The notes beneath the pieces were generated by a model. The model ran no database searches. It saw only the letters and a program-made list of their open reading frames with translations, and was not told where the DNA came from. A stretch of DNA of 24,829 nt, taken from a virus. Below, piece by piece: positions 11,613 through 21,176 of the stretch (within the stretch, counting starts at the first letter, position 1; every line of letters begins with the position of its first letter). The stretch lies in UHGV virus genome UHGV-0244087, one strand, 5' to 3'. The translations under genes were made by a program, and so were the position numbers.

Positions 11613-13364
11613 ATGATTCAGGACGCTTTTGTGCGCCAGCGTGCGCGGCAACTTTACTGGCAGGGTTATCCGCCCGCAGAAATATCACGTCTGATGGGAA
11701 TAAACCCGAACACGATTTATGCGTGGAAAAAACGCGACCAGTGGGATGAAACGCCACCCGTGCAGCGTGTCACGCAGTCCATCGATGCGCGCCTCATCCA
11801 GCTTACTGAAAAACAGAATAAAACAGGCGGTGACTTTAAGGAAATAGACCTGCTGACCCGGCAGCTTAAAAAACTGCATGATGGCCAGCCGGATGCGACG
11901 GCCACAGGAAAGAAAGGCCGGGCGAAAAAACTCAAAAATCATTTCACGCCGGAACAGATTGCCGCACTGCGGGAAAAAATCATCAGCAGGCTGGAGTGGC
12001 ATCAGCGGGGCTGGTTTGACTCCCTGACCCTTTGCAGGGAAGCCGGGATACGTAACAGGATGATCCTGAAATCCCGACAGATTGGCGCGACCTGGTATTT
12101 TGCACAGGAAGCACTGCTGATGGCGCTGCGTGACGATGTGGCGCAACCTTACCAGCGTAACCAGATTTTTTTGTCTGCGTCGCGTCGTCAGGCGTTCCAG
12201 TTTAAAAGCATTATTCAGAAGGCCGCGGCTGAAGTTGATGTGGAGCTGAAAGGGGGCGATAAAATCATCCTCTCCAACGGCGCAGAGCTGCATTTTCTCG
12301 GCACTTCTGCTGCGTCGGCGCAGTCCTATACGGGCAATTTTTATTTTGATGAATTTTTCTGGGTCAGTCGCTTTGCTGAACTGCGCAAGGTGGCTGGCGC
12401 TATGGCAACCCTCAGCGGACTGCGGCGCACCTACTTCTCCACGCCATCCACCGAAACGCACGAGGCATACGCCTACTGGAACGGCGACCGCTGGAACGAG
12501 AAAAAGGCCACGCATAAACGCCAGCGTTTTTCTGTGGACTGGAAAACGCTGCATAACGGGCTTATCTGCCCTGACCGGACGTGGCGGCAAATTGTCACGC
12601 TGGAAGATGTGGTTAATCACGGCTGGAAACACACCGATATTGATGAAATTCGTGATGAAAACACCGAAGACGAGTTCCTCAATCTCTATATGTGTGAGTT
12701 TGTCCGCGAAGGGGAATCGGCATTTAACCTGAATATCCTGATTGGCTGTGGTGTTGACGGATACGACGACTGGAAAGACTGGAAACCTTTTGCTCCCCGC
12801 CCGATGGGGAATCGTCCGGTATGGATTGGGTATGACGCAAACGGCAGCAGTGGCAACGGCGACAGCGGCGCTGTGTCCGTGGTGGTTCCTCCGTCTGTTC
12901 CTGGTGGCCGTTTTCGAACGGTGGAGACGCGACGCGTTCAGGGGCTGGAGTTTGAAGAACAGGCCAGAGTCATTGAAGAGTTCACGTGTCGCTACAACGT
13001 GGAACACATCGGCATTGATGTGACGGGCGGGAACGGGGAGGCTGTTTATCAGATAGTGAAACGGTTTTTCCCTGCTGCTATTCCGTACACCTTCACGCTG
13101 TCATCAAAACGGTCGCTGGTACTGAAAATGCTGCAAATAATGCGTGCCGGGCGGTGGGAATACGATCGCGCCGAACGCGAGCTGGTCGCAGCCTTTAACG
13201 CCGTGCGTAAGGTGAAAACACCGGGCGGCTTTATCACTTACGAAACGGACCGCGCGAGGGGGATCAGCCACGGCGACCTTGCGTGGGCAACCATGCTTGC
13301 TGTCATTAACGAACCAATTGGCGGCGAAGGAGAAAACGAGCGTTTCACAGTTATGGAGTTCTGA
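11613..13364 (+). CDS. P: Terminase ATPase (large) subunit P
   Basis: 583 aa, close to the 590-aa size of P2 gpP; AGGGGGAG ribosome-binding site; followed by Q with a TGATG overlap. Confidence 0.9.
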   Translation: MIQDAFVRQRARQLYWQGYPPAEISRLMGINPNTIYAWKKRDQWDETPPVQRVTQSIDARLIQLTEKQNKTGGDFKEIDLLTRQLKKLHDGQPDATATGKKGRAKKLKNHFTPEQIAALREKIISRLEWHQRGWFDSLTLCREAGIRNRMILKSRQIGATWYFAQEALLMALRDDVAQPYQRNQIFLSASRRQAFQFKSIIQKAAAEVDVELKGGDKIILSNGAELHFLGTSAASAQSYTGNFYFDEFFWVSRFAELRKVAGAMATLSGLRRTYFSTPSTETHEAYAYWNGDRWNEKKATHKRQRFSVDWKTLHNGLICPDRTWRQIVTLEDVVNHGWKHTDIDEIRDENTEDEFLNLYMCEFVREGESAFNLNILIGCGVDGYDDWKDWKPFAPRPMGNRPVWIGYDANGSSGNGDSGAVSVVVPPSVPGGRFRTVETRRVQGLEFEEQARVIEEFTCRYNVEHIGIDVTGGNGEAVYQIVKRFFPAAIPYTFTLSSKRSLVLKMLQIMRAGRWEYDRAERELVAAFNAVRKVKTPGGFITYETDRARGISHGDLAWATMLAVINEPIGGEGENERFTVMEF

Positions 13365-14410
13365 TGAGCAGAAAAAATAAAAAAGTGCGCATGAGTTCAC
13401 GCATTGATCTCGCTGATGCGCTCAGGAAAGAATCATCGCTCAGTGCATTCACATTTGATGGTCCTTATCGCCTGACCGGGCATGACCTGCTGGACAATAT
13501 GTACTGTGCTGATAACGGGCGGTGGTATGAAACCCCGGTGGACTGGTACGGTCTGGCAAGAGCAGCCCGGCAAACGTCCTGGCATCAGTCTGCGCTTTAC
13601 TTTAAGCGCAATGTATTACTCGGTTGCTACATCCCGCACCCGCTGCTTTCCCGGCAGGATTTCTCGGCGCTGGCGCTGGACTGGTTTGTGTTCGGTAACG
13701 CATTCCTTGAGCTTCGAAGCAATATGCTCGGCGAACCGCTTAAATTACGGCACGCCCTGGCGAAATACATGCGACGCGGAAGCGATCTTGAATCATGGTG
13801 GTATGTGCAGGATGGCAAGGACGCGTTTCAGTTTCGTCCTGGCAAAGTGTGCCACCTGATGAATCCGGATATTAACCAGGAAATCTACGGCATGCCGGAA
13901 TATCTTGGCGCATTACTCTCGGCCAGCCTTTCTCATTCGGCGGACATGTTCAGAAAACTGTACTACGACAACGGATCCCACGCCGGGTGCATCATCTACA
14001 TCGGTGCAGCGCAGGTAAACCGCGAAAGCATGGACTCCCTGAAAGAAACGCTACAGGGGGCACGTGGTGGTGGTGCGTTTAAAAACGTGCTCATTCATGC
14101 GCCCAACGGGGGCAAAGAGGGGGTGCAAATTTTGCCGTTCCAGCAGATCACCGCAAAAGATGAATTCATGAATGTTAAGGCGGCATCCCGTGATGATGTG
14201 CTGGCTGCGCACCGCGTTCCGCCGCAACTGATGGGGGCGATGCCGGGCGAAAAAAGTGCGTTTGGCGATGTGGAGAAGGCAGCGCGGGTTTACGCAATTA
14301 ACGAGCTGATGCCCGTCATGGAGGCTATGAAGCACATCAATGACTGGCTTGGCGAAGAGGTGATCCGTTTTAACTCTTATGCTCTTCTTGATGAAAAAAC
14401 AGCCCCGTGA
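13364..14410 (+). CDS. Q: Portal protein Q
   Basis: 348 aa; FTFDGP..WYETPV..GLAR resembles recalled P2 gpQ; sits downstream of P. Confidence 0.9.
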   Translation: MSRKNKKVRMSSRIDLADALRKESSLSAFTFDGPYRLTGHDLLDNMYCADNGRWYETPVDWYGLARAARQTSWHQSALYFKRNVLLGCYIPHPLLSRQDFSALALDWFVFGNAFLELRSNMLGEPLKLRHALAKYMRRGSDLESWWYVQDGKDAFQFRPGKVCHLMNPDINQEIYGMPEYLGALLSASLSHSADMFRKLYYDNGSHAGCIIYIGAAQVNRESMDSLKETLQGARGGGAFKNVLIHAPNGGKEGVQILPFQQITAKDEFMNVKAASRDDVLAAHRVPPQLMGAMPGEKSAFGDVEKAARVYAINELMPVMEAMKHINDWLGEEVIRFNSYALLDEKTAP

Positions 14411-14420
14411 TGGGGCTGTC
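14399..14420. terminator. Bidirectional intrinsic terminator between convergent Q and the 174-aa gene
   Basis: Perfect hairpin cagcccc-gtgat-ggggctg (14400-14418), flanked by an A-run upstream and a T-run downstream. Confidence 0.75.
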
Positions 14421-14424
14421 CTTT

Positions 14425-14949
14425 TTACCAGAGTTGAACCATTTTCTGGGTGCCGTCAGGCTTGAGATTATCAATTTCAGAGAGAACGTAATATTGAATG
14501 GCTTCACAAACGGTGGTGTAGGGTGAATTACCTTCTTTAAGTGGCACGATATTATTATTAACGCGAACCTGTATTTCATCGTTATACATTGCGATCGAAA
14601 CAGGCGTGTGCACGAACGCGACTTCGCCAGGTGTGTCGTCAACCACCGTTTCAATACTAAAAGTCAGTTTTCGCTCATCATTGCTGCCCCGTGCTTTGGG
14701 GGTAGCGGCAGGGATCTGGGATAAAGGCATTCTGCGAAATCCTTCGGCTGCTTCCAGTCCGCATGAAACGTAATGCTGGCGATTACCGTCGCTATCTGTC
14801 CAGGTCTGTGATGGCAGCTCCAGCGAGATTTCATAAGCATCAACAATGCCCTGGGCAAGGCGTACAAGCGGGGTCAGATCTTCATTGCGGCGAAAGCTCT
14901 CCTTTACCTGCTCCCGTTTTTCTCTTAACTGCTTGTAATTAATGACCAT
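14425..14949 (-). CDS. Hypothetical 174-aa protein, orphan cargo convergent with portal
   Basis: ATG at 14947-14949 with a GGAGG ribosome-binding site 8 nt upstream. No family recognised. Confidence 0.65.
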   Translation of the reverse strand: MVINYKQLREKREQVKESFRRNEDLTPLVRLAQGIVDAYEISLELPSQTWTDSDGNRQHYVSCGLEAAEGFRRMPLSQIPAATPKARGSNDERKLTFSIETVVDDTPGEVAFVHTPVSIAMYNDEIQVRVNNNIVPLKEGNSPYTTVCEAIQYYVLSEIDNLKPDGTQKMVQLW

Positions 14950-15048
14950 AAGACAGCCTCCATTGATTTCTTTGCTCGTATTTTGCACTTATGAAGTATG
15001 GTCGGCAAGGTGCCGTATCGCTGACGCGCTTCGCTTGTCTGCTGCTTC

Positions 15049-15077
15049 GCCGGGGCATAAAAAATTTATGCCCCGGC
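15049..15077. repeat. Perfect 29-bp palindrome in the non-coding stretch upstream of the 174-aa gene
   Basis: gccggggcat-aaaaaattt-atgccccggc, 10-bp arms extendable to 13 bp through the A/T loop. No U-tract follows on either strand. Confidence 0.7.
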
Positions 15078-15448
15078 TCTCCAGCTCCTGTATCAATCAG
15101 ATAATTTCACGACGCCTTCCAGTTTATCGCCACCATCGACGGTCAGACTCTTACGCAATTCCACCGCGTTGACTGTATGTTCTCGCTGCCTCAGTGCGAT
15201 TTTGACGGCCTTACCTTTCACCCCATCAAATCAAAAGCCCTCACGCCTTTTTCATGCTCAGCGTGAGAAATATGGCCATTCTGTTGTGTCTCTGCGACAT
15301 CGTTCAGGGAATGCTATTTACCCCCTGAAACGCGGGCTGTTCCCCCGTCACCTGCGCGCAGAAAAAGCGCGTTTTTTTGTGCACGCACGGATCCTTGACG
15401 GATCCAGCCGCCATGCGGGCCGGAAGGGTAAAAAGTCGTTCAAAAAAA

Positions 15449-15478
15449 TTGTGCAAATTTGTGCACTTTTGTGCAAAC
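15449..15478. repeat. Three tandem 10-bp iterons (TTGTGCA core)
   Basis: ttgtgcaaat, ttgtgcactt, ttgtgcaaac in direct succession; a fourth ttgtgca core lies at 15377-15383. Confidence 0.7.
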
Positions 15479-15480
15479 AA

Positions 15481-15505
15481 AAAGCGCCCCTGAGGCGCTT
15501 TAGTG
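15481..15505 (-). terminator. Intrinsic terminator ending the minus-strand cargo operon
   Basis: Hairpin agcgcc-cctga-ggcgct followed on the minus strand by a T-rich run (ttttgtttg); lies about 30 nt after the stop of the 87-aa gene. Confidence 0.65.
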
Positions 15506-15535
15506 TTTTATAGGTTGTGTATATTTGCTGGGTCC

Positions 15536-15799
15536 TTATCCTGCTGTGCTTTCAACTGATGAGGGGAACAAAATCTTTTCATCAAACCCTGCATTCATAT
15601 CATGGACAGCAACACACCAATCCATTGACGAACGATTATCAAGAGCCTCCATGATTTCATCCATGCGGCGCAGGTCATACAGGTAAATGCTTTTATCGCC
15701 AATGGTGTAAAAACCAATTTTTTTCGGTGATGGACAGCGATCAAGAACGTCCTGTAATTCGCTCAACCATGCTTGTTCTTTTTTTGTCAAAGTTGCCAT
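15536..15799 (-). CDS. Hypothetical 87-aa protein, fourth gene of the cargo operon
   Basis: ATG with an AAGGAGAG ribosome-binding site that is embedded in the last codons of the upstream gene. No family recognised. Confidence 0.6.
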   Translation of the reverse strand: MATLTKKEQAWLSELQDVLDRCPSPKKIGFYTIGDKSIYLYDLRRMDEIMEALDNRSSMDWCVAVHDMNAGFDEKILFPSSVESTAG

Positions 15800-15800
15800 A

Positions 15801-16292
15801 TCACTCTCCTTTGATGCGAATGCCAGTGGTACTCATTCTCCTGATTTCCCAGAGCACACGAGGAACACCACCGTTTCCGACCGGATCGCGTTTACTCCGC
15901 AGGGCGACGCTTGATTCCGCCCAGCTTTTTCTTGGAGGAAGCTCTTTCACACGAACAAAACCAGCTGCGCGGAGAGATGCTCCTGATTCATCTGCCTGGG
16001 TGTACGTAATACAACGTTGATAACCCATAGCCTTTGCTGCCCGCCAGACAGCACCATAAAGCGCGCTGTTAGCGTTGCGTTCTCCTGTGGTACATGTGCG
16101 ATTTACTTCAAGCGTTAATCCATCGTCCAAATGTCGTGCAACAGGTCTACCGGCTGTCGCCACACCTATCAATTCTCCGGCATCATTTCTCAGACCAATG
16201 CTGAATTTATGCCCCACCGGGGGTTTATTGTGTCGGTGATGTCTGGATATAAACGCCTTCGCAACACGAAGAGTAACCGGTGAAATTTGCAT
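15801..16292 (-). CDS. Hypothetical 163-aa protein, third gene of the cargo operon; possibly acyltransferase-like
   Basis: ATG at 16290-16292, 2 nt after the stop of the 104-aa gene, with the same embedded ribosome-binding site. A loose resemblance to GNAT-toxin N-terminal regions (FISRHHRHNKPP..IGVATAG) is not verified. Confidence 0.6.
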   Translation of the reverse strand: MQISPVTLRVAKAFISRHHRHNKPPVGHKFSIGLRNDAGELIGVATAGRPVARHLDDGLTLEVNRTCTTGERNANSALYGAVWRAAKAMGYQRCITYTQADESGASLRAAGFVRVKELPPRKSWAESSVALRSKRDPVGNGGVPRVLWEIRRMSTTGIRIKGE

Positions 16293-16294
16293 TC

Positions 16295-16609
16295 TCACTC
16301 TCCTTTGATGCCAATGTTTACAGACTGGCAAGCCTCTTTGAGCACCCAGTCAACAGCGTCTTTCCATGCTCCGGTTTCGACTGGCGGATTCTCACGCTTT
16401 ACCTGTTCATAGAAATGTACTGCTCTAACCAGTCCATCTGACGGTTTTGCCTGTAGTGCAGCCTGAGCTATGCGGTATGCCTGGAGCATACGGGCGTCGT
16501 TGATATCCATTCCGAACGGAATTTCTGATGATTGTGACTCTGCATCTTCAAGCCTGGCAATTTCTTTACGTAAGAAGTATTTCAACTCTTGTTTCTGTTT
16601 TCTGTTCAT
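16295..16609 (-). CDS. Hypothetical 104-aa helical protein, second gene of the cargo operon
   Basis: ATG overlaps the stop of the upstream gene (ATGA). C-terminus ...NIGIKGE parallels the ...GIRIKGE end of the next protein. Confidence 0.6.
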
Positions 16610-16938
16610 GCGTTTTTTTCCTTTTTGTCTGTCACTTCTTTCCTGATAATTTCATTGCACAAATCCACGCACTCATTGCAGATGTAAACAGACGGTCCGG
16701 CAATCACCTTTGTGACTTCGTACTGGGATTTATTGCAGAAGCTGCAATAAACCGTCTTCTCGCCTGAAGTCCATGTTTTGCTGGTTTCGCCAGACATCAG
16801 TTGTTTGAGGTCTTTTTCACGACGAAGAACTATCTGGCCACATTCAGCTATTTTTTGGATGTTGACATTTTCTTCTTTCGCCAGCGCTTCCATCCGCTCA
16901 ATCAGTCGCTGCGCTTTTTCTCTGTCAATGTGTTGCAT
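16606..16938 (-). CDS. 110-aa protein with a C-terminal ClpX-type C4 zinc-binding domain and an N-terminal helical region
   Basis: [41 protein letters not shown] is near-identical in pattern to the recalled E. coli ClpX N-terminal domain ([40 protein letters not shown]), with the same C-x2-C-x18-C-x2-C spacing. ATG with an AGGGGGA ribosome-binding site. Confidence 0.75.
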
Positions 16939-17001: not shown

Positions 17002-17313
17002 TTATTCGGGAAATAACGCCCGGATATTTCCGGCCATCTGACTGGTTATCTGTGCGGCTGATACTGGCTGTGACGCGGGGCGTTCTGTCCTGGTTTGTGT
17101 CATTGATAACGCCTCATCATCAGCCCATGCAGCCAGTCGGTAAGCCTCTGCCGGATTCATTTTCAGTAGTGCCAGCCCGGCCAGAAAAGCCACGCGTTGA
17201 CCACTTTTGCGGGCTTCTGGTGTAAGGCTGTCCAGCCAGGCGCATGCTTCGCCTTCGTTCTTGACGGCGGCGGGCTTCAGATAGAAACTTATCCGTCTGG
17301 TTGGTGTCGTCAT
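17002..17313 (-). CDS. parR: ParR (StbB)-like centromere-binding protein
   Basis: 103 aa; RRISFYLKP..LDSLTPEARKS..AFLAGLALL..NIRALFPE parallels recalled R1 ParR (RRTIAFKLNP..LDSIPQGERSR..LTAGLALY..LRSLFPKE). AAGGAG ribosome-binding site; start 5 nt after the parM stop. Confidence 0.75.
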   Translation of the reverse strand: MTTPTRRISFYLKPAAVKNEGEACAWLDSLTPEARKSGQRVAFLAGLALLKMNPAEAYRLAAWADDEALSMTQTRTERPASQPVSAAQITSQMAGNIRALFPE

Positions 17314-17317
17314 TGGT

Positions 17318-18277
17318 TTACTCCTTGCCCATTGCGTACAGCCCATTAACCAGAGCAAACTGTGGCACCCCGTCCGCGATGAAAGTCGCATTAACTCCGC
17401 AGGCTTCGCGGATAGCGGGTGCCACAATCTCTGCCCCGCCACCGACAACCATCACCCGCCCGTAACCCGAAAAACCCGCCAGCGCGCGGATCACGCGTTG
17501 TTTCAGTGTTTCTTCCTTTTCACGAATAACCGCCATCAGGCTGGCGTAATGCGCGTCATTGTGGATGTGCTGGCGCAGCCAGGCTTCATCATGGCGATGT
17601 TCGATAATGGTATTGGCGATGTGGTGACTGGTACGCATACCGTTAGTGGCCATCACCGACAGTACGGCATCGGCCATCAGGGAAACGCCTACGTGTGGAT
17701 CGCAAAACACCTGGCTGATACCTGCCAGTTGTCCCTGAACCTTTGCCACATCCAGCGTGGTTCCGCCTAAATCCACAATCAGCAGGGATTCAAACGGACT
17801 CATGTCAGCCAGTGCCTTAAAGCCAGCCGGAATGGATTCAGGCATAACCCGTACGTTACGGATAGTGAATGCTTCGCCGTTCTGGTACTCCACCGGGCGC
17901 ATAACGTTCGCTTTTTTGCGGTTGATGTTGGCTATGTCCGGCTGTGCGTTTGTGTCGAAATACTCGCTCAGTGGCAGGGTGACAACCACATCCACCTCCT
18001 GTGGCGTGATGCCTGATTTGACCAGCGCGTGATGAATGGCAATGACATTCACATCGCTGTACTGGTATTGCGTGTCAGTCGTCTGGACAAAGCGATCGCT
18101 GACCGGATCAAAACCATAGCGCACGCCATCAAGCATGTAGTTCGCGGGCTGCGTGCCACCGAACGGCGCAGACCATTCCGACTTGAAGCTGTTCGGGCTG
18201 ATGGCGTTGCGGCGTTCGCCGTTCTCAGTCCATGCCAGCTTGATGTTGGTGGAGCCGTCATCGATACAAATTTTCAT
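17318..18277 (-). CDS. parM: ParM (StbA)-like actin-family ATPase
   Basis: 319 aa; MKICIDDGSTNIKL..ISPNSFK..YSDVNVIAIHHAL..VMPESIPAG..LIVDLGGTTLD..VGGGAE tracks recalled R1 ParM along its length. Confidence 0.85.
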   Translation of the reverse strand: MKICIDDGSTNIKLAWTENGERRNAISPNSFKSEWSAPFGGTQPANYMLDGVRYGFDPVSDRFVQTTDTQYQYSDVNVIAIHHALVKSGITPQEVDVVVTLPLSEYFDTNAQPDIANINRKKANVMRPVEYQNGEAFTIRNVRVMPESIPAGFKALADMSPFESLLIVDLGGTTLDVAKVQGQLAGISQVFCDPHVGVSLMADAVLSVMATNGMRTSHHIANTIIEHRHDEAWLRQHIHNDAHYASLMAVIREKEETLKQRVIRALAGFSGYGRVMVVGGGAEIVAPAIREACGVNATFIADGVPQFALVNGLYAMGKE

Positions 18278-18307: not shown

Positions 18308-18418
18308 GTTTACGGGATTCTGAAATCCCGTTTTTGCCTGTTTTATGCGCGCTTCATATATCGCGGCGCGTTTTTTGCTCATTTACGGGATTTGTGAATC
18401 CCGTTTCTGTCTGTTTTT
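18308..18418. repeat. Two direct copies of a ~37-bp element, each with an 8-bp inverted repeat (acgggatt..aatcccgt) followed by a T-rich tail
   Basis: Copy 1 at 18308-18344 (gtttacgggattctgaaatcccgtttttgcctgtttt) and copy 2 at 18382-18418, 74 bp apart. They lie just upstream of parM, and copy 2 overlaps the last codons of A. Confidence 0.75.
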
Positions 18419-21176
18419 TGTTTCCACTGGTCAGGCCACCCCGCAGCAGGTCTGCTTTGCGGCGGGCGCGTTCAGTGGTTTCACTGATTCTCTGTGCGTG
18501 CTCTGCGTCGCGGATGGCGCGCAGCATGTCAGAAAGCACGGTAACGGGTGTTTTCATGGTGTTCTGGTCTTGCTGAAGTGTGGATGCCAGGCGTGCGGCG
18601 GCTTCGGGGTCTGATGCCCTCAGCTGTTCCAGATAGCTGGCGACCGGGTTATGGCGGATCTCCGTACTGCTTACGCCGTGGTTACGGCTCAGGCGCTGCC
18701 AGAGCTGCGTGATCCGGCTGTCCGGTCGGGTATCCGGTTTGCGTACAATTTCAAATCCCTGCGGTGCAATGATGCTGCCGTCAACGTACAGACTGCCGCC
18801 CCGTAACAGGTGCTGCATCTGCTGTTCACCGATATGCAGGCCGAGAGATTCGGCAGATTCCCGCCATTCTTTAGCGAGTAATTCGTGGTTATCAGGCAAA
18901 GGCCGCTGCTGTTTGCGGCTCTGTGTCCAGCTCTGCATTTCATCACTGCTGTTTTTTGCCTGTTTGTCACGAAGCGAACGCATCAGCGCCCGGCGTTCGT
19001 GCCGTTTCAGTGAGCGCATCCATTCGTTCACGTCAACGCCGTCAGGAAGCTGCGGCCACGGTGCTGGCCGTTCTTCCGGCTGTTCTGTCCCGTTGTTGTC
19101 CGTTTCCTGTACACGGGGACAGTTATTGCCACGAGTCCAAGGGGCGGCATGGCCGCCCTGAAGGTCAAAACCATTTTCGCGGGCGTTGTCTTCTGGTTCT
19201 GGTTTACGTCTTACCAACTTCCAGTTATCCGGATGCGTGCACACACGGGAGGATTCCCCGATGAGTGGTGACCAGATCCCGTAAATCTGTACGCTCTGTT
19301 CGCCGTAATCGTTCAGCTCATCTGCGAGGTCGTAGGCGGTGCGAATCAGGTAGTCCTTGCGTGGAACAAGCACGCCACCCTGTTTTTCAATGTAGGAGGC
19401 AAAACACCCGGCATCAGCGGCAGCGAGTACCGCATCCATTGCATCATCCTTCAGCCGTTGCGGGCCTTCCGGGTTGCGTGCCATCTGGCTGGCAAGGCGG
19501 CGGAGTTCACGCCATACCTGACGGGAGGGGATGCCAAAGAACTGGAACTGGCGGACCCGATGAAGACGCGCCCAGCCAATGGCGCGCTCCACGCTCTCGG
19601 CCATTGATTTTCCGGTTTCGTGGTCAACGCGTGGCTTGCCCGTTTTCGGGTCGATGCCATCTACGGCGCGGCTGTCCAGGTTTTTTCCGATGTAGGTCGC
19701 GATATAGCTGGTTGGTGTGCCTTTTGAGCCGTCGACATACTCCGCCTTAAAGCGCGGAGTAATATCATCGCCCAGTTCGTGACGATCTTCCTGAATGGCA
19801 ATATCGCGGGTGATGGCCACGATGCTGTCGATTTCTTCCGGATGAGCAAAGACCATCATATGCCAGTGCACGGTGCCGTCATGGTGAGGCTCCACCGTGC
19901 GGATGCCATACCAGCGCAGGCCGTCGCGGTTCAGTTTTTTGCGGACTGCCGCAAAAAACGTGTTAACCAGGTAATCGCTGGAGTCGCGCATGGTGGCCCC
20001 GTTCCATTTGGGGTTCGGATGACCGTTCTCCGTTGTTGCGTGGTATTTTGACGGGCAGGTGACGGTCAGAAACACCGCTCTGTCGCTACGGGCTTCGGCC
20101 AGAAGTTCCAGTCCCTTCATGGTGGCCATCATTTCTGCCTTACGGTGAACCGGGTTACTTACTCCCGCGTAATACACCGTCTCGAGATCAATCGTGAACC
20201 CGTCTTCATTTTCCAGCATGAAACTTTTCAGGAAATCGCGTGTTTTCTCGCGCTGTGCGCGAAACTCGCTTAACGCGTCCTGGCTCAGATAGGGCGATGT
20301 TTTTCTGGAAACCAGACAGGCGGCGCGGAGTTGTTCTTCTCTCCACTCGCAACGTAACAGCCACAGTTTGCGTTTCCACCATTCCGCACAGGTCAGGCGG
20401 AGGATTGCGCCCGGCAGCAGCTCCGTGTCCGGTTCGTTCCTCCGGTCTTTGTCTGTTGTCAGTGCGTCATAATGTGGAGGCATGGCGTGCAGGTGTAACG
20501 CCATGCGGGCCAGCATCTGATACGCCTTCAGCGTTACATCCATGGTCAGTTCGCCATCAGTCGCGCCAAAGCCATCGCAGAGTTTTTCGAAGGTGCTGCT
20601 GAACATCGCCGCCGTCATGGTGGCCAGCGTCTGTATCTGGTGTTTGTTGAGCTGCGGCAGGTAAAGCAAATCGTCCAGGCGTTCGCGTCCGGCAAGGGAG
20701 CGATAACCCGGTGTCAGCCAGCGTCTGTCAGTGCGATCCAGACGTTCGAATATTTTGCGCAGGGTTCCGCGTGCATAGCGTTCCGCCTGCCAGCTCTTTT
20801 TGCCTTTCCGGCGATCGGCTTCCTGTTTTTTGCGCAGGAAGGAGAGGTGGCGAATAAGCGGATCGCGCAGATAGGACGGCAGCAGGCGCAGCGAGGCCAT
20901 GGCTTCATCCACCGCGCCGCGTGCCCGTTTTCTGGCGTCTCCTGCCAGTGTGATGGTTTTGTCCTGTTTTTCCTGTGCGTCCAGGCTTTTATTAATCAGG
21001 TTGCCCAGCGGTGTGGCGGAGAACGCCGCATCAGCCATTTCCTGGCGGCGTTCGTTCTCTGCCCGGTAGGCATCCAGCCAGGAGGAAAGTGCGGATTCAG
21101 GTGCGGGGATCTCCGTTCCTTCACGTCCTACTGCGTGGCGCGGTTGTTGCCAGTCCCTGATGTACTCTGCCGTCAT
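18354..21176 (-). CDS. A: Replication initiation endonuclease A (rolling-circle), with a long C-terminal extension
   Basis: 940 aa, recognised as P2 gpA-like from overall sequence and position downstream of the early-region ORFs; ATG start. Recalled P2 gpA is 761 aa. Confidence 0.85.
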   Translation of the reverse strand: MTAEYIRDWQQPRHAVGREGTEIPAPESALSSWLDAYRAENERRQEMADAAFSATPLGNLINKSLDAQEKQDKTITLAGDARKRARGAVDEAMASLRLLPSYLRDPLIRHLSFLRKKQEADRRKGKKSWQAERYARGTLRKIFERLDRTDRRWLTPGYRSLAGRERLDDLLYLPQLNKHQIQTLATMTAAMFSSTFEKLCDGFGATDGELTMDVTLKAYQMLARMALHLHAMPPHYDALTTDKDRRNEPDTELLPGAILRLTCAEWWKRKLWLLRCEWREEQLRAACLVSRKTSPYLSQDALSEFRAQREKTRDFLKSFMLENEDGFTIDLETVYYAGVSNPVHRKAEMMATMKGLELLAEARSDRAVFLTVTCPSKYHATTENGHPNPKWNGATMRDSSDYLVNTFFAAVRKKLNRDGLRWYGIRTVEPHHDGTVHWHMMVFAHPEEIDSIVAITRDIAIQEDRHELGDDITPRFKAEYVDGSKGTPTSYIATYIGKNLDSRAVDGIDPKTGKPRVDHETGKSMAESVERAIGWARLHRVRQFQFFGIPSRQVWRELRRLASQMARNPEGPQRLKDDAMDAVLAAADAGCFASYIEKQGGVLVPRKDYLIRTAYDLADELNDYGEQSVQIYGIWSPLIGESSRVCTHPDNWKLVRRKPEPEDNARENGFDLQGGHAAPWTRGNNCPRVQETDNNGTEQPEERPAPWPQLPDGVDVNEWMRSLKRHERRALMRSLRDKQAKNSSDEMQSWTQSRKQQRPLPDNHELLAKEWRESAESLGLHIGEQQMQHLLRGGSLYVDGSIIAPQGFEIVRKPDTRPDSRITQLWQRLSRNHGVSSTEIRHNPVASYLEQLRASDPEAAARLASTLQQDQNTMKTPVTVLSDMLRAIRDAEHAQRISETTERARRKADLLRGGLTSGNKKQTETGFTNPVNEQKTRRDI

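What the first reader, a model, noticed from the sequence alone, without database searches (positions are those of the whole stretch)
14425..14949. Orphan 174-aa gene wedged convergently against the portal gene
In P2 the portal gene is followed by about 200 bp of non-coding DNA containing cos. Here a strongly initiated gene (GGAGG ribosome-binding site) ends 14 bp after the Q stop and shares a bidirectional terminator with it. I could not assign it to any family. Its position makes it a moron in the defence-hotspot neighbourhood.
Basis: partly seen in the sequence, partly recalled or inferred. Interest (0 to 1): 0.5.

Follow-up and report, generated by a model that had tools for sequence, protein, structure and literature searches.

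The report
Uncharacterised passenger gene between cos and portal
A small, well-conserved gene of unknown function sits, with its own promoter and terminator, between the DNA-packaging (cos) site and the portal gene of a P2-type E. coli prophage. It is a classic phage passenger gene ('moron') at a known insertion spot, carried by about 7% of complete E. coli genomes, but its family has never been studied and its predicted fold matches nothing known.

Summary
A 174-aa gene (14949->14425, minus strand) has a GGAGG ribosome-binding site. It ends 14 nt from the portal (Q) stop and shares a strong bidirectional hairpin terminator with Q.

The window is a P88-like (Xuanwuvirus) prophage. The gene lies in a 631-bp segment that replaces 18 bp in phage P88. 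About 397 complete E. coli genomes carry it, about 741 have the empty site, and almost none has anything else there.

I located cos at 15334-15352, a 19-mer identical in P88 and Salmonella relatives and 13/19 identical to P2 cos. The gene is therefore the first gene after cosL, a position already described as a moron site in P2-like phages.

It is a real gene: dN/dS is 0.06-0.14, a -35/-10 pair is conserved from E. coli to Salmonella, and GC3 is low. It belongs to PHROG 5091, a family of unknown function across Enterobacterales. Its members sit in accessory positions in P2-like, HK97-like, lambdoid and myovirus prophages, often beside packaging genes.

No Pfam, NCBIfam or PADLOC hit was found. 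A confident AlphaFold model (pLDDT 86.5) has no convincing structural neighbour.

The 'moron' reading is supported. A defence role is plausible but untested. The gene is already listed as 'hypothetical' in Rousset et al. 2022, Table S5.

The parts
14386..15016 (.). 631-bp segment that distinguishes phages carrying the gene from P88-type 'empty' phages. It holds the new last codons of Q, the terminator, the gene, its ribosome-binding site and its promoter. P88 has 18 bp here.
   Evidence: Pairwise alignments with P88 (L002): homology ends at about 14385 and resumes at 15017.
14425..14949 (-). Coding sequence of the 174-aa protein (WP_000236495.1; PHROG 5091). It is soluble and acidic (pI 5.0, net charge -6).
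   Evidence: dN/dS is 0.06-0.14 among alleles. The AlphaFold2 model has pLDDT 86.5.
14957..14961 (-). Ribosome-binding site GGAGG, 7 nt before the ATG.
   Evidence: Read directly from the sequence. GGAG is kept in the Salmonella and Trabulsiella alleles.
14980..14985 (-). -10 box CAAAAT of the gene's own sigma-70-type promoter.
   Evidence: Conserved in the E. coli and Salmonella alleles although the spacer sequence has diverged. This is in-silico evidence only.
15003..15008 (-). -35 box TTGCCG, with a 17-nt spacer to the -10 box.
   Evidence: TTGCCG in E. coli and TTGTCT in Salmonella, at the same spacing.
14399..14419 (.). Bidirectional intrinsic terminator shared by Q and the 174-aa gene. 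The Q stop codon lies in the loop.
   Evidence: The Salmonella and Morganella loci have a different GC-rich hairpin at the same place.
13364..14410 (+). Portal gene Q. Its last residues differ between phages with the gene (…LLDEKTAP) and P88 (…LLDTQPTS).
   Evidence: Pfam Phage_portal, E 8e-18. C-termini compared.
15017..15024 (+). ATCGCTGA, an apparent relic of the ancestral Q 3' end (P88 has ATC-CTGA, including the stop) at the right edge of the segment.
   Evidence: This is an inference: a chance match would be roughly 1e-3.
15049..15077 (.). Perfect 13-bp-arm hairpin, probably the ancestral Q terminator. It now sits between cos and the gene's promoter.
   Evidence: Folds at -31.6 kcal/mol, z = -7.2. 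In P88 it lies 38 nt after the Q stop.
15334..15352 (-). Probable cohesive-end (cos) 19-mer GGTGACGGGGGAACAGCCC. It makes the 174-aa gene the first gene after cosL.
   Evidence: Identical in P88 and in three Salmonella loci whose surrounding DNA has diverged. It is 13/19 identical to P2 cos, in the same orientation relative to Q, and aligns onto P2 cosR.
15481..15501 (.). Bidirectional terminator closing the early (gpA-ParM-…) operon. It marks the boundary beyond which prophages carrying the gene lose homology.

Best explanation
Shown:
- This is a genuine, selectively maintained, single-gene moron in a P88-like (P2-family) prophage.
- It is a self-contained transcription unit: a sigma-70-type promoter, GGAGG, a 174-codon ORF and a bidirectional terminator.
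- It lies in the about 0.9 kb between the cohesive-end site and the portal gene, in a 631-bp segment that closely related phages lack.
- Viable phages exist with and without the gene, so it is dispensable for virion production.
- It belongs to a family spread across Enterobacterales (PHROG 5091). Its members sit in accessory positions of several unrelated temperate-phage types and occasionally stand alone in chromosomes.

Inferred:
- The gene is transcribed from its own promoter in the lysogen, independently of the early and late operons. Terminators or hairpins flank it on both sides.
- Its product is a cytoplasmic, acidic, roughly 20-kDa alpha/beta protein with no catalytic, DNA-binding or membrane signature. 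It most likely acts by stoichiometric binding to another protein.
- The most likely role is in inter-phage conflict, following the logic of P2 Tin, a non-enzymatic excluder encoded in the same cos-proximal region: it would bind and disable a component of a competing phage or satellite.
For: Real gene:
- dN/dS is 0.06-0.14.
- Length and motifs (Y39, S42, L43, W50, Y60, V61, F97, T101; the TV[IV]DD[ST]P hairpin; VCxxIK) are kept down to about 22% identity.
- The AlphaFold2 model is confident: pLDDT 86.5, pTM 0.75.

Autonomous unit:
- The -35/-10 pair keeps its 17-nt spacing in the E. coli and Salmonella alleles despite a diverged spacer.
- A perfect TATAAT lies upstream of the Morganella homologue.
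- Terminator hairpins are found at the same place with different sequence.

Accessory status:
- The gene is absent from P88 and 11 other P88-like phage records and present in 4.
- 397 complete E. coli genomes carry it and 741 have the empty site.
- GC3 is 48% against 60-64% for the core genes.

Location:
- It lies inside the gpA-gpQ hotspot.
- The cosL-Q interval is described as a site where P2-like phages pick up foreign genes (PMC5694545).

Mobility of the family:
- Members are found in a myovirus baseplate cluster, with larger intergenic gaps than the neighbouring genes.
- Others lie in the Q-antiterminator-to-holin gap and in the lysis-to-HNH/terminase gap.
- Some are stand-alone chromosomal copies. 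In Trabulsiella the homologue lies beside HicAB and Phd-Doc.

Non-enzymatic, soluble protein:
- No domain hits in any of the 53 family members.
- pI is 5.0 and the family median is 5.1.
Against: - No expression data and no phenotype exist.
- No similarity to any PADLOC defence or candidate model, nor to P2 Tin.
- This exact site shows no alternative cargo, unlike a typical defence hotspot.
- The gene keeps the same cos-to-portal position in P2-like phages whose head genes are only 40-47% identical (Morganella). It sits immediately upstream of HNH-terminase in several HK97-like prophage lineages. That could mean a function tied to packaging or the genome end rather than lysogen defence.
- In most non-P2 contexts it is co-oriented with late genes and would be made during lytic growth.
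Confidence: 0.4

Rival explanations
1. Counter-defence protein. The phage makes this small acidic protein, early from its own promoter or late in other phage types, to bind and neutralise a host immune or nuclease component such as RecBCD, a restriction enzyme or an abortive-infection sensor.
For: - The protein is small, acidic and soluble, with no domain and a predicted fold with no known match, as for many anti-defence proteins.
- It is a single gene with no conserved partner.
- It lies within about 0.4 kb of a genome end in P2-like phages and next to HNH-terminase in HK97-like phages, so it is near DNA that enters at one extreme of ejection.
Against: - Stand-alone chromosomal copies with no phage genes nearby (L008-L010) make little sense for an anti-defence gene.
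- Only about a third of otherwise near-identical P88-like prophages carry the gene.
- Moura de Sousa 2026 found recognisable anti-defence genes in only 28 of 1511 P2 elements. This is a weak argument, because it covers only known families.
Confidence: 0.2
2. Non-essential helper of packaging, ejection or the genome end. The protein would interact with portal, terminase or HNH, or with the cohesive ends, for example by modulating packaging, interfering with cos-hijacking satellites such as P4, or being packaged and ejected with the DNA.
For: - The gene sits between cos and the portal gene, convergent with and abutting it, in E. coli, Salmonella and Morganella P2-like prophages. X identity falls from 100% to 60% to 23%, alongside Q (100, 74, 47%) and P (100, 77, 44%).
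- Homologues lie 30-100 nt upstream of HNH-TerS-TerL-portal in at least four HK97-like sub-lineages, and between the lysis genes and TerL in a lambda-like prophage.
Against: - The gene is dispensable: P88 and about 741 E. coli prophages lack it, and P2 and 186-type phages have no counterpart.
- Family members also lie in baseplate clusters, in Q-to-holin gaps, after gpA in Trabulsiella, and alone in chromosomes.
- Regions next to cos are generic moron sites, so proximity alone is weak evidence.
- The gene is transcribed convergently to the P-Q operon rather than with it.
Confidence: 0.12
3. A lysogenic-conversion factor unrelated to phages. It would modulate a host pathway (stress, metabolism, virulence or colonisation) by binding a host protein.
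For: - It has the same autonomous-unit anatomy as bor, lom or sopE-type morons.
- It is frequent in ExPEC ST131, STEC O103/O111 and ETEC genomes.
- Stand-alone chromosomal copies sit among metabolic genes.
Against: - There is no signal peptide or secretion signal, and the N-terminus is highly charged (read directly from the sequence).
- No similarity to any virulence or regulatory family.
- The family is overwhelmingly phage-borne.
Confidence: 0.15
4. A decaying or spurious ORF: non-functional filler between cos and Q.
For: No function, domain or expression data.
Against: - Strong purifying selection.
- The ORF is intact in 395 of 397 genomes.
- Motifs are conserved across a family down to 22% identity.
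- The predicted structure is confident.
- Promoter, ribosome-binding site and terminator are conserved.
Confidence: 0.02

Closest known systems
P2 tin and old (lysogenic-conversion exclusion genes of the cos-proximal gpA-gpQ region)
   Same: - Non-essential genes in the same inter-module region next to cos.
- Transcribed from their own promoter, independently of the early and late operons.
- Tin is a non-enzymatic protein that excludes T-even phages (established knowledge; one search confirms the defence phenotype of old-tin).
   Different: - No sequence relationship to Tin (hhalign probability 0.3%), and no Old-type ATPase or TOPRIM domain.
- tin and old lie on the gpA side of cos, at the right end of the virion DNA. 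This gene lies on the Q side, at the left end.
- No phenotype is known.
Foreign genes between cosL and the Q homologue in other P2-like phages (phiRSY1 ORF1-4; also phiCTX ctx and 186-related retron prophages, as cited there)
   Same: Same insertion site. [quoted passage not shown]
   Different: - Those cargos are unrelated genes. ORF2 of phiRSY1 is Vgr-like. That phiCTX carries a cytotoxin gene and the 186-related prophages carry retrons here is from my own memory, not from the paper.
- Here the site holds one gene family, kept across diverged hosts, rather than varied cargo.
Classical lambdoid or HK97 morons (bor, lom, HK97 gp15; Juhala/Hendrix definition)
   Same: - A promoter-gene-terminator unit.
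- Presence or absence between close relatives.
- Deviant base composition.
- Located at module boundaries of the late region.
   Different: Those examples are envelope proteins with known phenotypes. This protein is predicted to be cytoplasmic and has no known phenotype.
PHROG 5091 (unknown function)
   Same: Full-length match at E 1.4e-67. All 53 aligned relatives hit only this PHROG.
   Different: The PHROG carries no annotation, so membership gives a name but no function.

Membership tests
Phage moron (autonomous accessory transcription unit) | Present in some genomes and absent from closely related ones | tested here: met
   4 P88-like phage records carry it and 12 lack it. P88 has 18 bp in place of the 631 bp. 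397 complete E. coli genomes carry it against 741 with the empty site.
Phage moron (autonomous accessory transcription unit) | Own promoter and own terminator flanking the gene | tested here: met
   In silico only. TTGCCG-17 nt-CAAAAT is conserved between E. coli and Salmonella. The bidirectional terminator folds at -17.3 and -21.3 kcal/mol.
Phage moron (autonomous accessory transcription unit) | Base composition differs from the neighbouring core genes | tested here: met
   GC 47.6% and GC3 48.0%, against GC3 60-64% for P, Q, ParM and gpA.
Phage moron (autonomous accessory transcription unit) | Expressed from the repressed prophage | not testable with these tools
   Needs RNA-seq or 5'-RACE of a lysogen.
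Cargo of the P2 gpA-gpQ defence hotspot (Rousset 2022) | Encoded between the gpA and gpQ homologues, next to cos | tested here: met
   gpA is at 18354-21176, Q at 13364-14410 and cos at 15334-15352. WP_000236495 is listed at least 167 times in Table S5 of that paper.
Cargo of the P2 gpA-gpQ defence hotspot (Rousset 2022) | The site holds many alternative, rapidly swapped gene arrangements | tested here: not met
   The cos-Q sub-site is essentially two-state: 741 empty plus 397 occupied, out of 1146 genomes matched. The variable cargo starts to the right of 15481-15501.
Cargo of the P2 gpA-gpQ defence hotspot (Rousset 2022) | Similarity to a known or candidate defence protein | tested here: not met
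   PADLOC gives 0 hits for the protein at E<=1. Among the 53 relatives there are only two chance-level singletons.
Cargo of the P2 gpA-gpQ defence hotspot (Rousset 2022) | Confers resistance to phage infection | not testable with these tools
   The accession is absent from the table of tested systems in Rousset 2022 (it occurs only in file 6 = Table S5). It is also absent from the Vassallo 2022 supplements.
PHROG 5091 | Full-length match to the family profile | tested here: met
   E 1.4e-67, residues 1-168 against profile positions 1-164 of 164.
P2 Tin / Old exclusion proteins | Homology to Tin, or an Old-type ATPase-TOPRIM architecture | tested here: not met
   hhalign against Tin gives probability 0.3%. 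No Pfam domain was found.
   Absent from P2, from P88 and from two thirds of P88-like prophages. No structural-protein family or fold match.

The most novel reading that the evidence does not exclude
PHROG 5091 could be a structurally new, single-protein effector family of temperate Enterobacterales phages. Its action would be tied to the genome terminus or the packaging machinery. It might exclude or sabotage competitors and cos-hijacking satellites at the packaging or ejection step, or protect the incoming DNA end. This would explain why it keeps the cos-to-portal position in P2-like phages down to 23% identity, and why it sits directly upstream of HNH-terminase in several HK97-like lineages.
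Probability: 0.15. Interest if true: 0.65.

Novelty: new member of a known kind. Interest (0 to 1): 0.35.

Why it matters
About 7% of complete E. coli genomes carry this exact gene, including pandemic ST131, STEC O103/O111 and ETEC lineages. It lies in a prophage region that has repeatedly yielded new anti-phage systems.

Its family has no annotation, no recognisable domain and a confidently predicted fold with no structural neighbour. A phenotype would therefore define a new protein family.

The gene is short, autonomous and naturally polymorphic among viable phages: PhiR44_2 carries it and P88 does not. This makes it an unusually easy candidate to test.

The by-products are useful for annotating Xuanwuvirus prophages. 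They include the cos 19-mer, the exact boundaries of the segment, and the observation that the truly variable cargo lies on the other side of cos.

If no phenotype is found, the gene remains an ordinary hypothetical moron.

Tried and rejected
- **Family searches.** Pfam, NCBIfam and PADLOC were run on the protein and on 53 relatives. Nothing appeared beyond chance singletons.
- **PDB sequence search.** phmmer hit designed helical-repeat proteins at residues 125-168 (E 2.7e-7). The family profile did not reproduce these hits, so I rejected them as an artefact of idealised, low-complexity sequences.
- **Fold searches.**
  - Foldseek against PDB gave no hit below E 0.001 and TM-scores of 0.3 or less.
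  - BFVD gave none.
  - None of these hits was used as functional evidence.
  - The afdb50 library was unavailable.
- **Comparison with P2 Tin.** No relationship.
- **P2 cos.** An exact or 3-mismatch search for P2 cos, and BLAST against the P2 cos region, found nothing. The cos 19-mer emerged only from a 6-mismatch scan combined with conservation across loci.
- **Rfam.** No RNA family in 14000-16000.
- **Literature.**
  - No paper mentions WP_000236495, A0A0C5EXS4, phrog_5091 or the FIG identifier.
  - The Vassallo 2022 supplements lack the accession.
  - The Moura de Sousa 2026 supplements are not held.
  - I could not establish which P2 DNA end is ejected first.
- **Related loci.** The search for related loci failed with the 53-sequence alignment. 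The genome-contig scan added only Salmonella and Trabulsiella.
- **Polarity of the indel.** It is an 18-bp to 631-bp replacement, not a clean insertion or deletion. A relic of the old Q end suggests insertion, but this is not proven.

Full report
**1. What the window is**

The window carries the head and early modules of a P2-family prophage. The large terminase P (11613-13364, +) and the portal Q (13364-14410, +) have the expected Pfam domains. To the right lie a ClpX-zinc-finger-only protein, ParM and the gpA replication endonuclease on the minus strand.

Megablast places it among P88-like phages (Peduoviridae, Xuanwuvirus). The region 13900-15600 is 99-100% identical to Escherichia phages PhiR44_2, vB_EcoM-569R5 and vB_EcoM-705R2, and to many E. 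coli chromosomes.

**2.

The ORF runs 14425-14988 on the minus strand, and the ATG at 14949 gives 174 aa. GGAGG lies at 14961-14957, 7 nt before the ATG.

The gene's stop codon is 14 nt from the Q stop. Between the two stops lies the hairpin 14399-14419, which has the Q stop codon in its loop and T-runs on both strands. As RNA it folds at -17.3 kcal/mol on the + strand and -21.3 kcal/mol on the - strand. None of 200 shuffles folds as well.

The ATG, not the upstream GTG, is the start. All homologues begin M-x-I-[NT]-Y, RefSeq annotates WP_000236495.1 from this ATG, and the conserved -10 box lies downstream of the GTG.

In P2 itself nothing is encoded between cosL (1-19) and the Q stop (187). 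Only the terminator tQ lies there.

**3. Anatomy of the segment and of cos**

Phage P88 lacks the gene. Homology between the window and P88 ends at about 14385, inside the last codons of Q, and resumes at 15017. A 631-bp segment therefore replaces 18 bp of P88, and the Q C-terminus changes from …LLDTQPTS to …LLDEKTAP. At the right edge the window keeps ATCGCTGA where P88 has the end of Q, ATC-CTGA. I read this as a relic of the former Q terminus, which suggests an insertion. The polarity is not proven.

To the right of the segment, 15017-15475 is non-coding DNA shared with P88. It contains the 19-mer GGTGACGGGGGAACAGCCC at 15352->15334 on the minus strand.

- This 19-mer is identical in P88 and in three Salmonella P2-like loci whose surrounding DNA has diverged.
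- It is 13/19 identical to the P2 cohesive end, in the same orientation relative to Q.
- It aligns onto P2 cosR together with eight further upstream positions.

I take it to be cos. The 174-aa gene is then the first gene after cosL, 385 bp from it.

A perfect 13-bp hairpin (15049-15077, -31.6 kcal/mol) lies between cos and the gene. In P88 it follows Q and is probably the ancestral Q terminator.

**4. It is a real, autonomous gene**

- **Selection.** Alleles from prophage contigs give dN/dS of 0.06-0.14 at dS up to 0.22.
- **Promoter.** Upstream, TTGCCG-17 nt-CAAAAT (15008-15003 and 14985-14980) is kept as TTGTCT-17 nt-CAAAAT in Salmonella alleles that are only about 60% identical at the protein level, although the spacer differs. 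GGAG is also kept. A Morganella homologue has a perfect TATAAT upstream.
- **Terminator.** The hairpin between the gene and Q is present in the Salmonella and Morganella loci, with a different sequence.
- **Composition.** GC3 is 48% against 60-64% for P, Q, ParM and gpA.
- **RNA.** No Rfam family lies in the region.

These are the textbook features of a moron. Expression itself was not measured.

**5. Distribution**

The gene occurs in 397 of 5426 complete E. coli genomes. There are 403 places in all, every one chromosomal, and 282 genomes carry a copy at 99% identity or more. They include ST131, O103:H2, O111 and ETEC strains.

The P88-type empty junction is intact in 741 genomes. Together these two states account for 1138 of the 1146 genomes that match the junction probe, so the site is essentially two-state.

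The exact protein is on record on at least 1000 contigs, always named 'hypothetical'. Two large plasmid-labelled records also carry it.

In 38 close viral-contig loci it always abuts Q at the same distance. Homology between prophages that carry the gene stops at 15475-15500, at the early-operon terminator. The truly variable cargo is on the gpA side of cos.

**6. What is already known**

The gpA-gpQ interval is the principal defence hotspot of P2-like phages. The P88-like arrangement is the 'putative plasmid partitioning' class, which makes up about a quarter of those loci.

WP_000236495 appears at least 167 times in Table S5 of Rousset et al. 2022, as the last 'hypothetical' of such loci. It does not appear in their table of tested systems or in the Vassallo 2022 supplements. 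No paper mentions its identifiers.

The cosL-Q position has been described as a place where P2-like phages acquire foreign genes (PMC5694545, citing Dodd & Egan 1996 and Nakayama 1999).

**7. The protein**

There is no hit in Pfam, NCBIfam or PADLOC. The only match is PHROG 5091, of unknown function, at E 1.4e-67.

Close homologues are in E. coli, Salmonella and Trabulsiella. A profile search of 1.84 billion representatives finds 89 proteins, mostly 155-180 aa and matching over their full length. All named ones are 'hypothetical', and they include Lelliottia and Morganella proteins.

All 53 aligned members hit only PHROG 5091. Pfam and PADLOC give only chance singletons.

Conserved positions are Y39, S42, L43, L45, W50, Y60, V61, F97 and T101. 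There is also a TV[IV]DD[ST]P beta-hairpin and a C-terminal VCxxIK helix.

The protein is acidic (pI 5.0, net charge -6; family median pI 5.1). Its N-terminus is highly charged, with no signal or transmembrane segment (and direct reading of the sequence).

AlphaFold2 with the 53-sequence alignment gives pLDDT 86.5 and pTM 0.75. The model has two N-terminal helices, a seven-strand antiparallel sheet and a C-terminal helix.

- Foldseek against PDB gives nothing below E 0.001.
- BFVD gives nothing.
- hhalign finds no relation to P2 Tin.

The fold is therefore uninformative and possibly new. Nothing suggests catalysis, DNA binding or membrane insertion.

**8. Contexts of relatives**

- **Salmonella P2-like prophages.** The homologue (60-63% identical) has the same cos-gene-Q arrangement, although the gpA-side cargo and gpA itself (about 32% identical) differ. 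Q, P and N are 74-78%, 77-78% and 69% identical.
- **Morganella P2-like prophage.** A homologue only 23% identical again lies convergent to and abutting the portal gene, 261 nt from a P2-like cos string. Q, P and N are 47%, 44% and 40% identical.
- **Trabulsiella.** The homologue follows gpA, on the other side of cos, next to HicAB and Phd-Doc.
- **Other phage types.**
  - Relatives lie inside or beside myovirus baseplate clusters, with wider intergenic gaps than the neighbouring genes.
  - Relatives lie between the Q antiterminator and the holin.
  - Relatives lie between the lysis genes and lambda-type terminase.
  - In at least four HK97-like sub-lineages they lie 30-100 nt upstream of HNH-TerS-TerL-portal.
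  - One group is stand-alone among chromosomal metabolic genes.
- **Partner genes.** No conserved partner gene exists.

**9. Interpretation**

It is shown that this is a selectively maintained, dispensable, self-contained accessory gene at a known moron site, and a member of a mobile, uncharacterised phage family.

It is inferred that the gene is expressed from its own promoter, and that its product acts by binding rather than catalysis. The most likely role is in inter-phage conflict, following the logic of P2 Tin. I give this overall reading 0.4.

The rivals are counter-defence (0.2), a host-directed conversion factor (0.15), and a non-essential helper of packaging or the genome end (0.12).

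The packaging rival rests on the gene's persistent position beside the portal gene or HNH-terminase. Dispensability and the many other contexts count against it, and regions next to cos are generic moron sites.

A spurious ORF is excluded (0.02).

**10. Verdict**

'Defence' remains a hypothesis, and the exact site is not itself hypervariable.

The gene is a new member of a known kind: an uncharacterised moron in the P2 cos-proximal region. It is worth a simple plating experiment but is not surprising in itself.

Noticed in passing
window 15334-15352 (minus strand): Probable cos cohesive-end 19-mer of P88-like phages, GGTGACGGGGGAACAGCCC. It is identical in P88 and in Salmonella P2-like prophages and 13/19 identical to P2 cos. 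It does not appear to be annotated in the phage records examined.
   Followed up: yes
window 15377-15475 (+ strand): Four TTGTGCA copies at 15377, 15449, 15459 and 15469, the last three exactly 10 nt apart, lying 25-120 nt from cos. These are half of all copies in the 24.8-kb window, and P88 also has them. This may be a phased protein-binding array (terminase cosB-like, or the ParR centromere).
   Followed up: partly
window 15536-16609 (minus strand): The truly variable cargo of this prophage lies here, just beyond the early-operon terminator. It comprises an 87-aa ORF (PHROG 1714), a 176-aa XF1762-family / Mom-like protein (NCBIfam NF045478, E 6e-61; PHROG 'Mom-like DNA modification') and a 104-aa ORF. 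P88 has different genes at this position. The Mom-like gene could be a DNA-modification (anti-restriction) function.
   Followed up: partly
window 16606-16938 (minus strand): A 110-aa protein consisting essentially of a ClpX-type C4 zinc finger (Pfam E 7e-18) with no ATPase domain. It is conserved in P88 and may be an adaptor for, or competitor of, the host ClpX.
   Followed up: no
window 17002-18277 (minus strand): A ParM/StbA actin-like partition ATPase plus a small downstream partner, inside a chromosomally integrated P2-like prophage. Rousset 2022 noted this 'plasmid partitioning' class in about a quarter of P2-like loci. In strain AVS0225 parM is truncated to a pseudogene.
   Followed up: partly
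window 15049-15077: A perfect 13-bp-arm hairpin (-31.6 kcal/mol) with no T-run. In P88 it lies 38 nt after the Q stop, so it is probably the ancestral Q terminator. In phages that carry the 174-aa gene it sits upstream of that gene's promoter.
   Followed up: partly
L070 and L079 (IMGVR_UViG_2627854076_000003): One viral contig carries two diverged PHROG 5091 copies at different positions, one in the baseplate cluster and one in the late-region gap. The family can therefore be present twice in a single element.
   Followed up: no
L006 7010-8053 and 8656-8674 (Trabulsiella guamensis): In this P2-like prophage HicAB and Phd-Doc toxin-antitoxin modules lie between the PHROG 5091 homologue and a cos-like 19-mer, GGCGACGGGGGGACAGCGC (4 mismatches to P2 cos). 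Here the homologue is on the gpA side of cos.
   Followed up: partly
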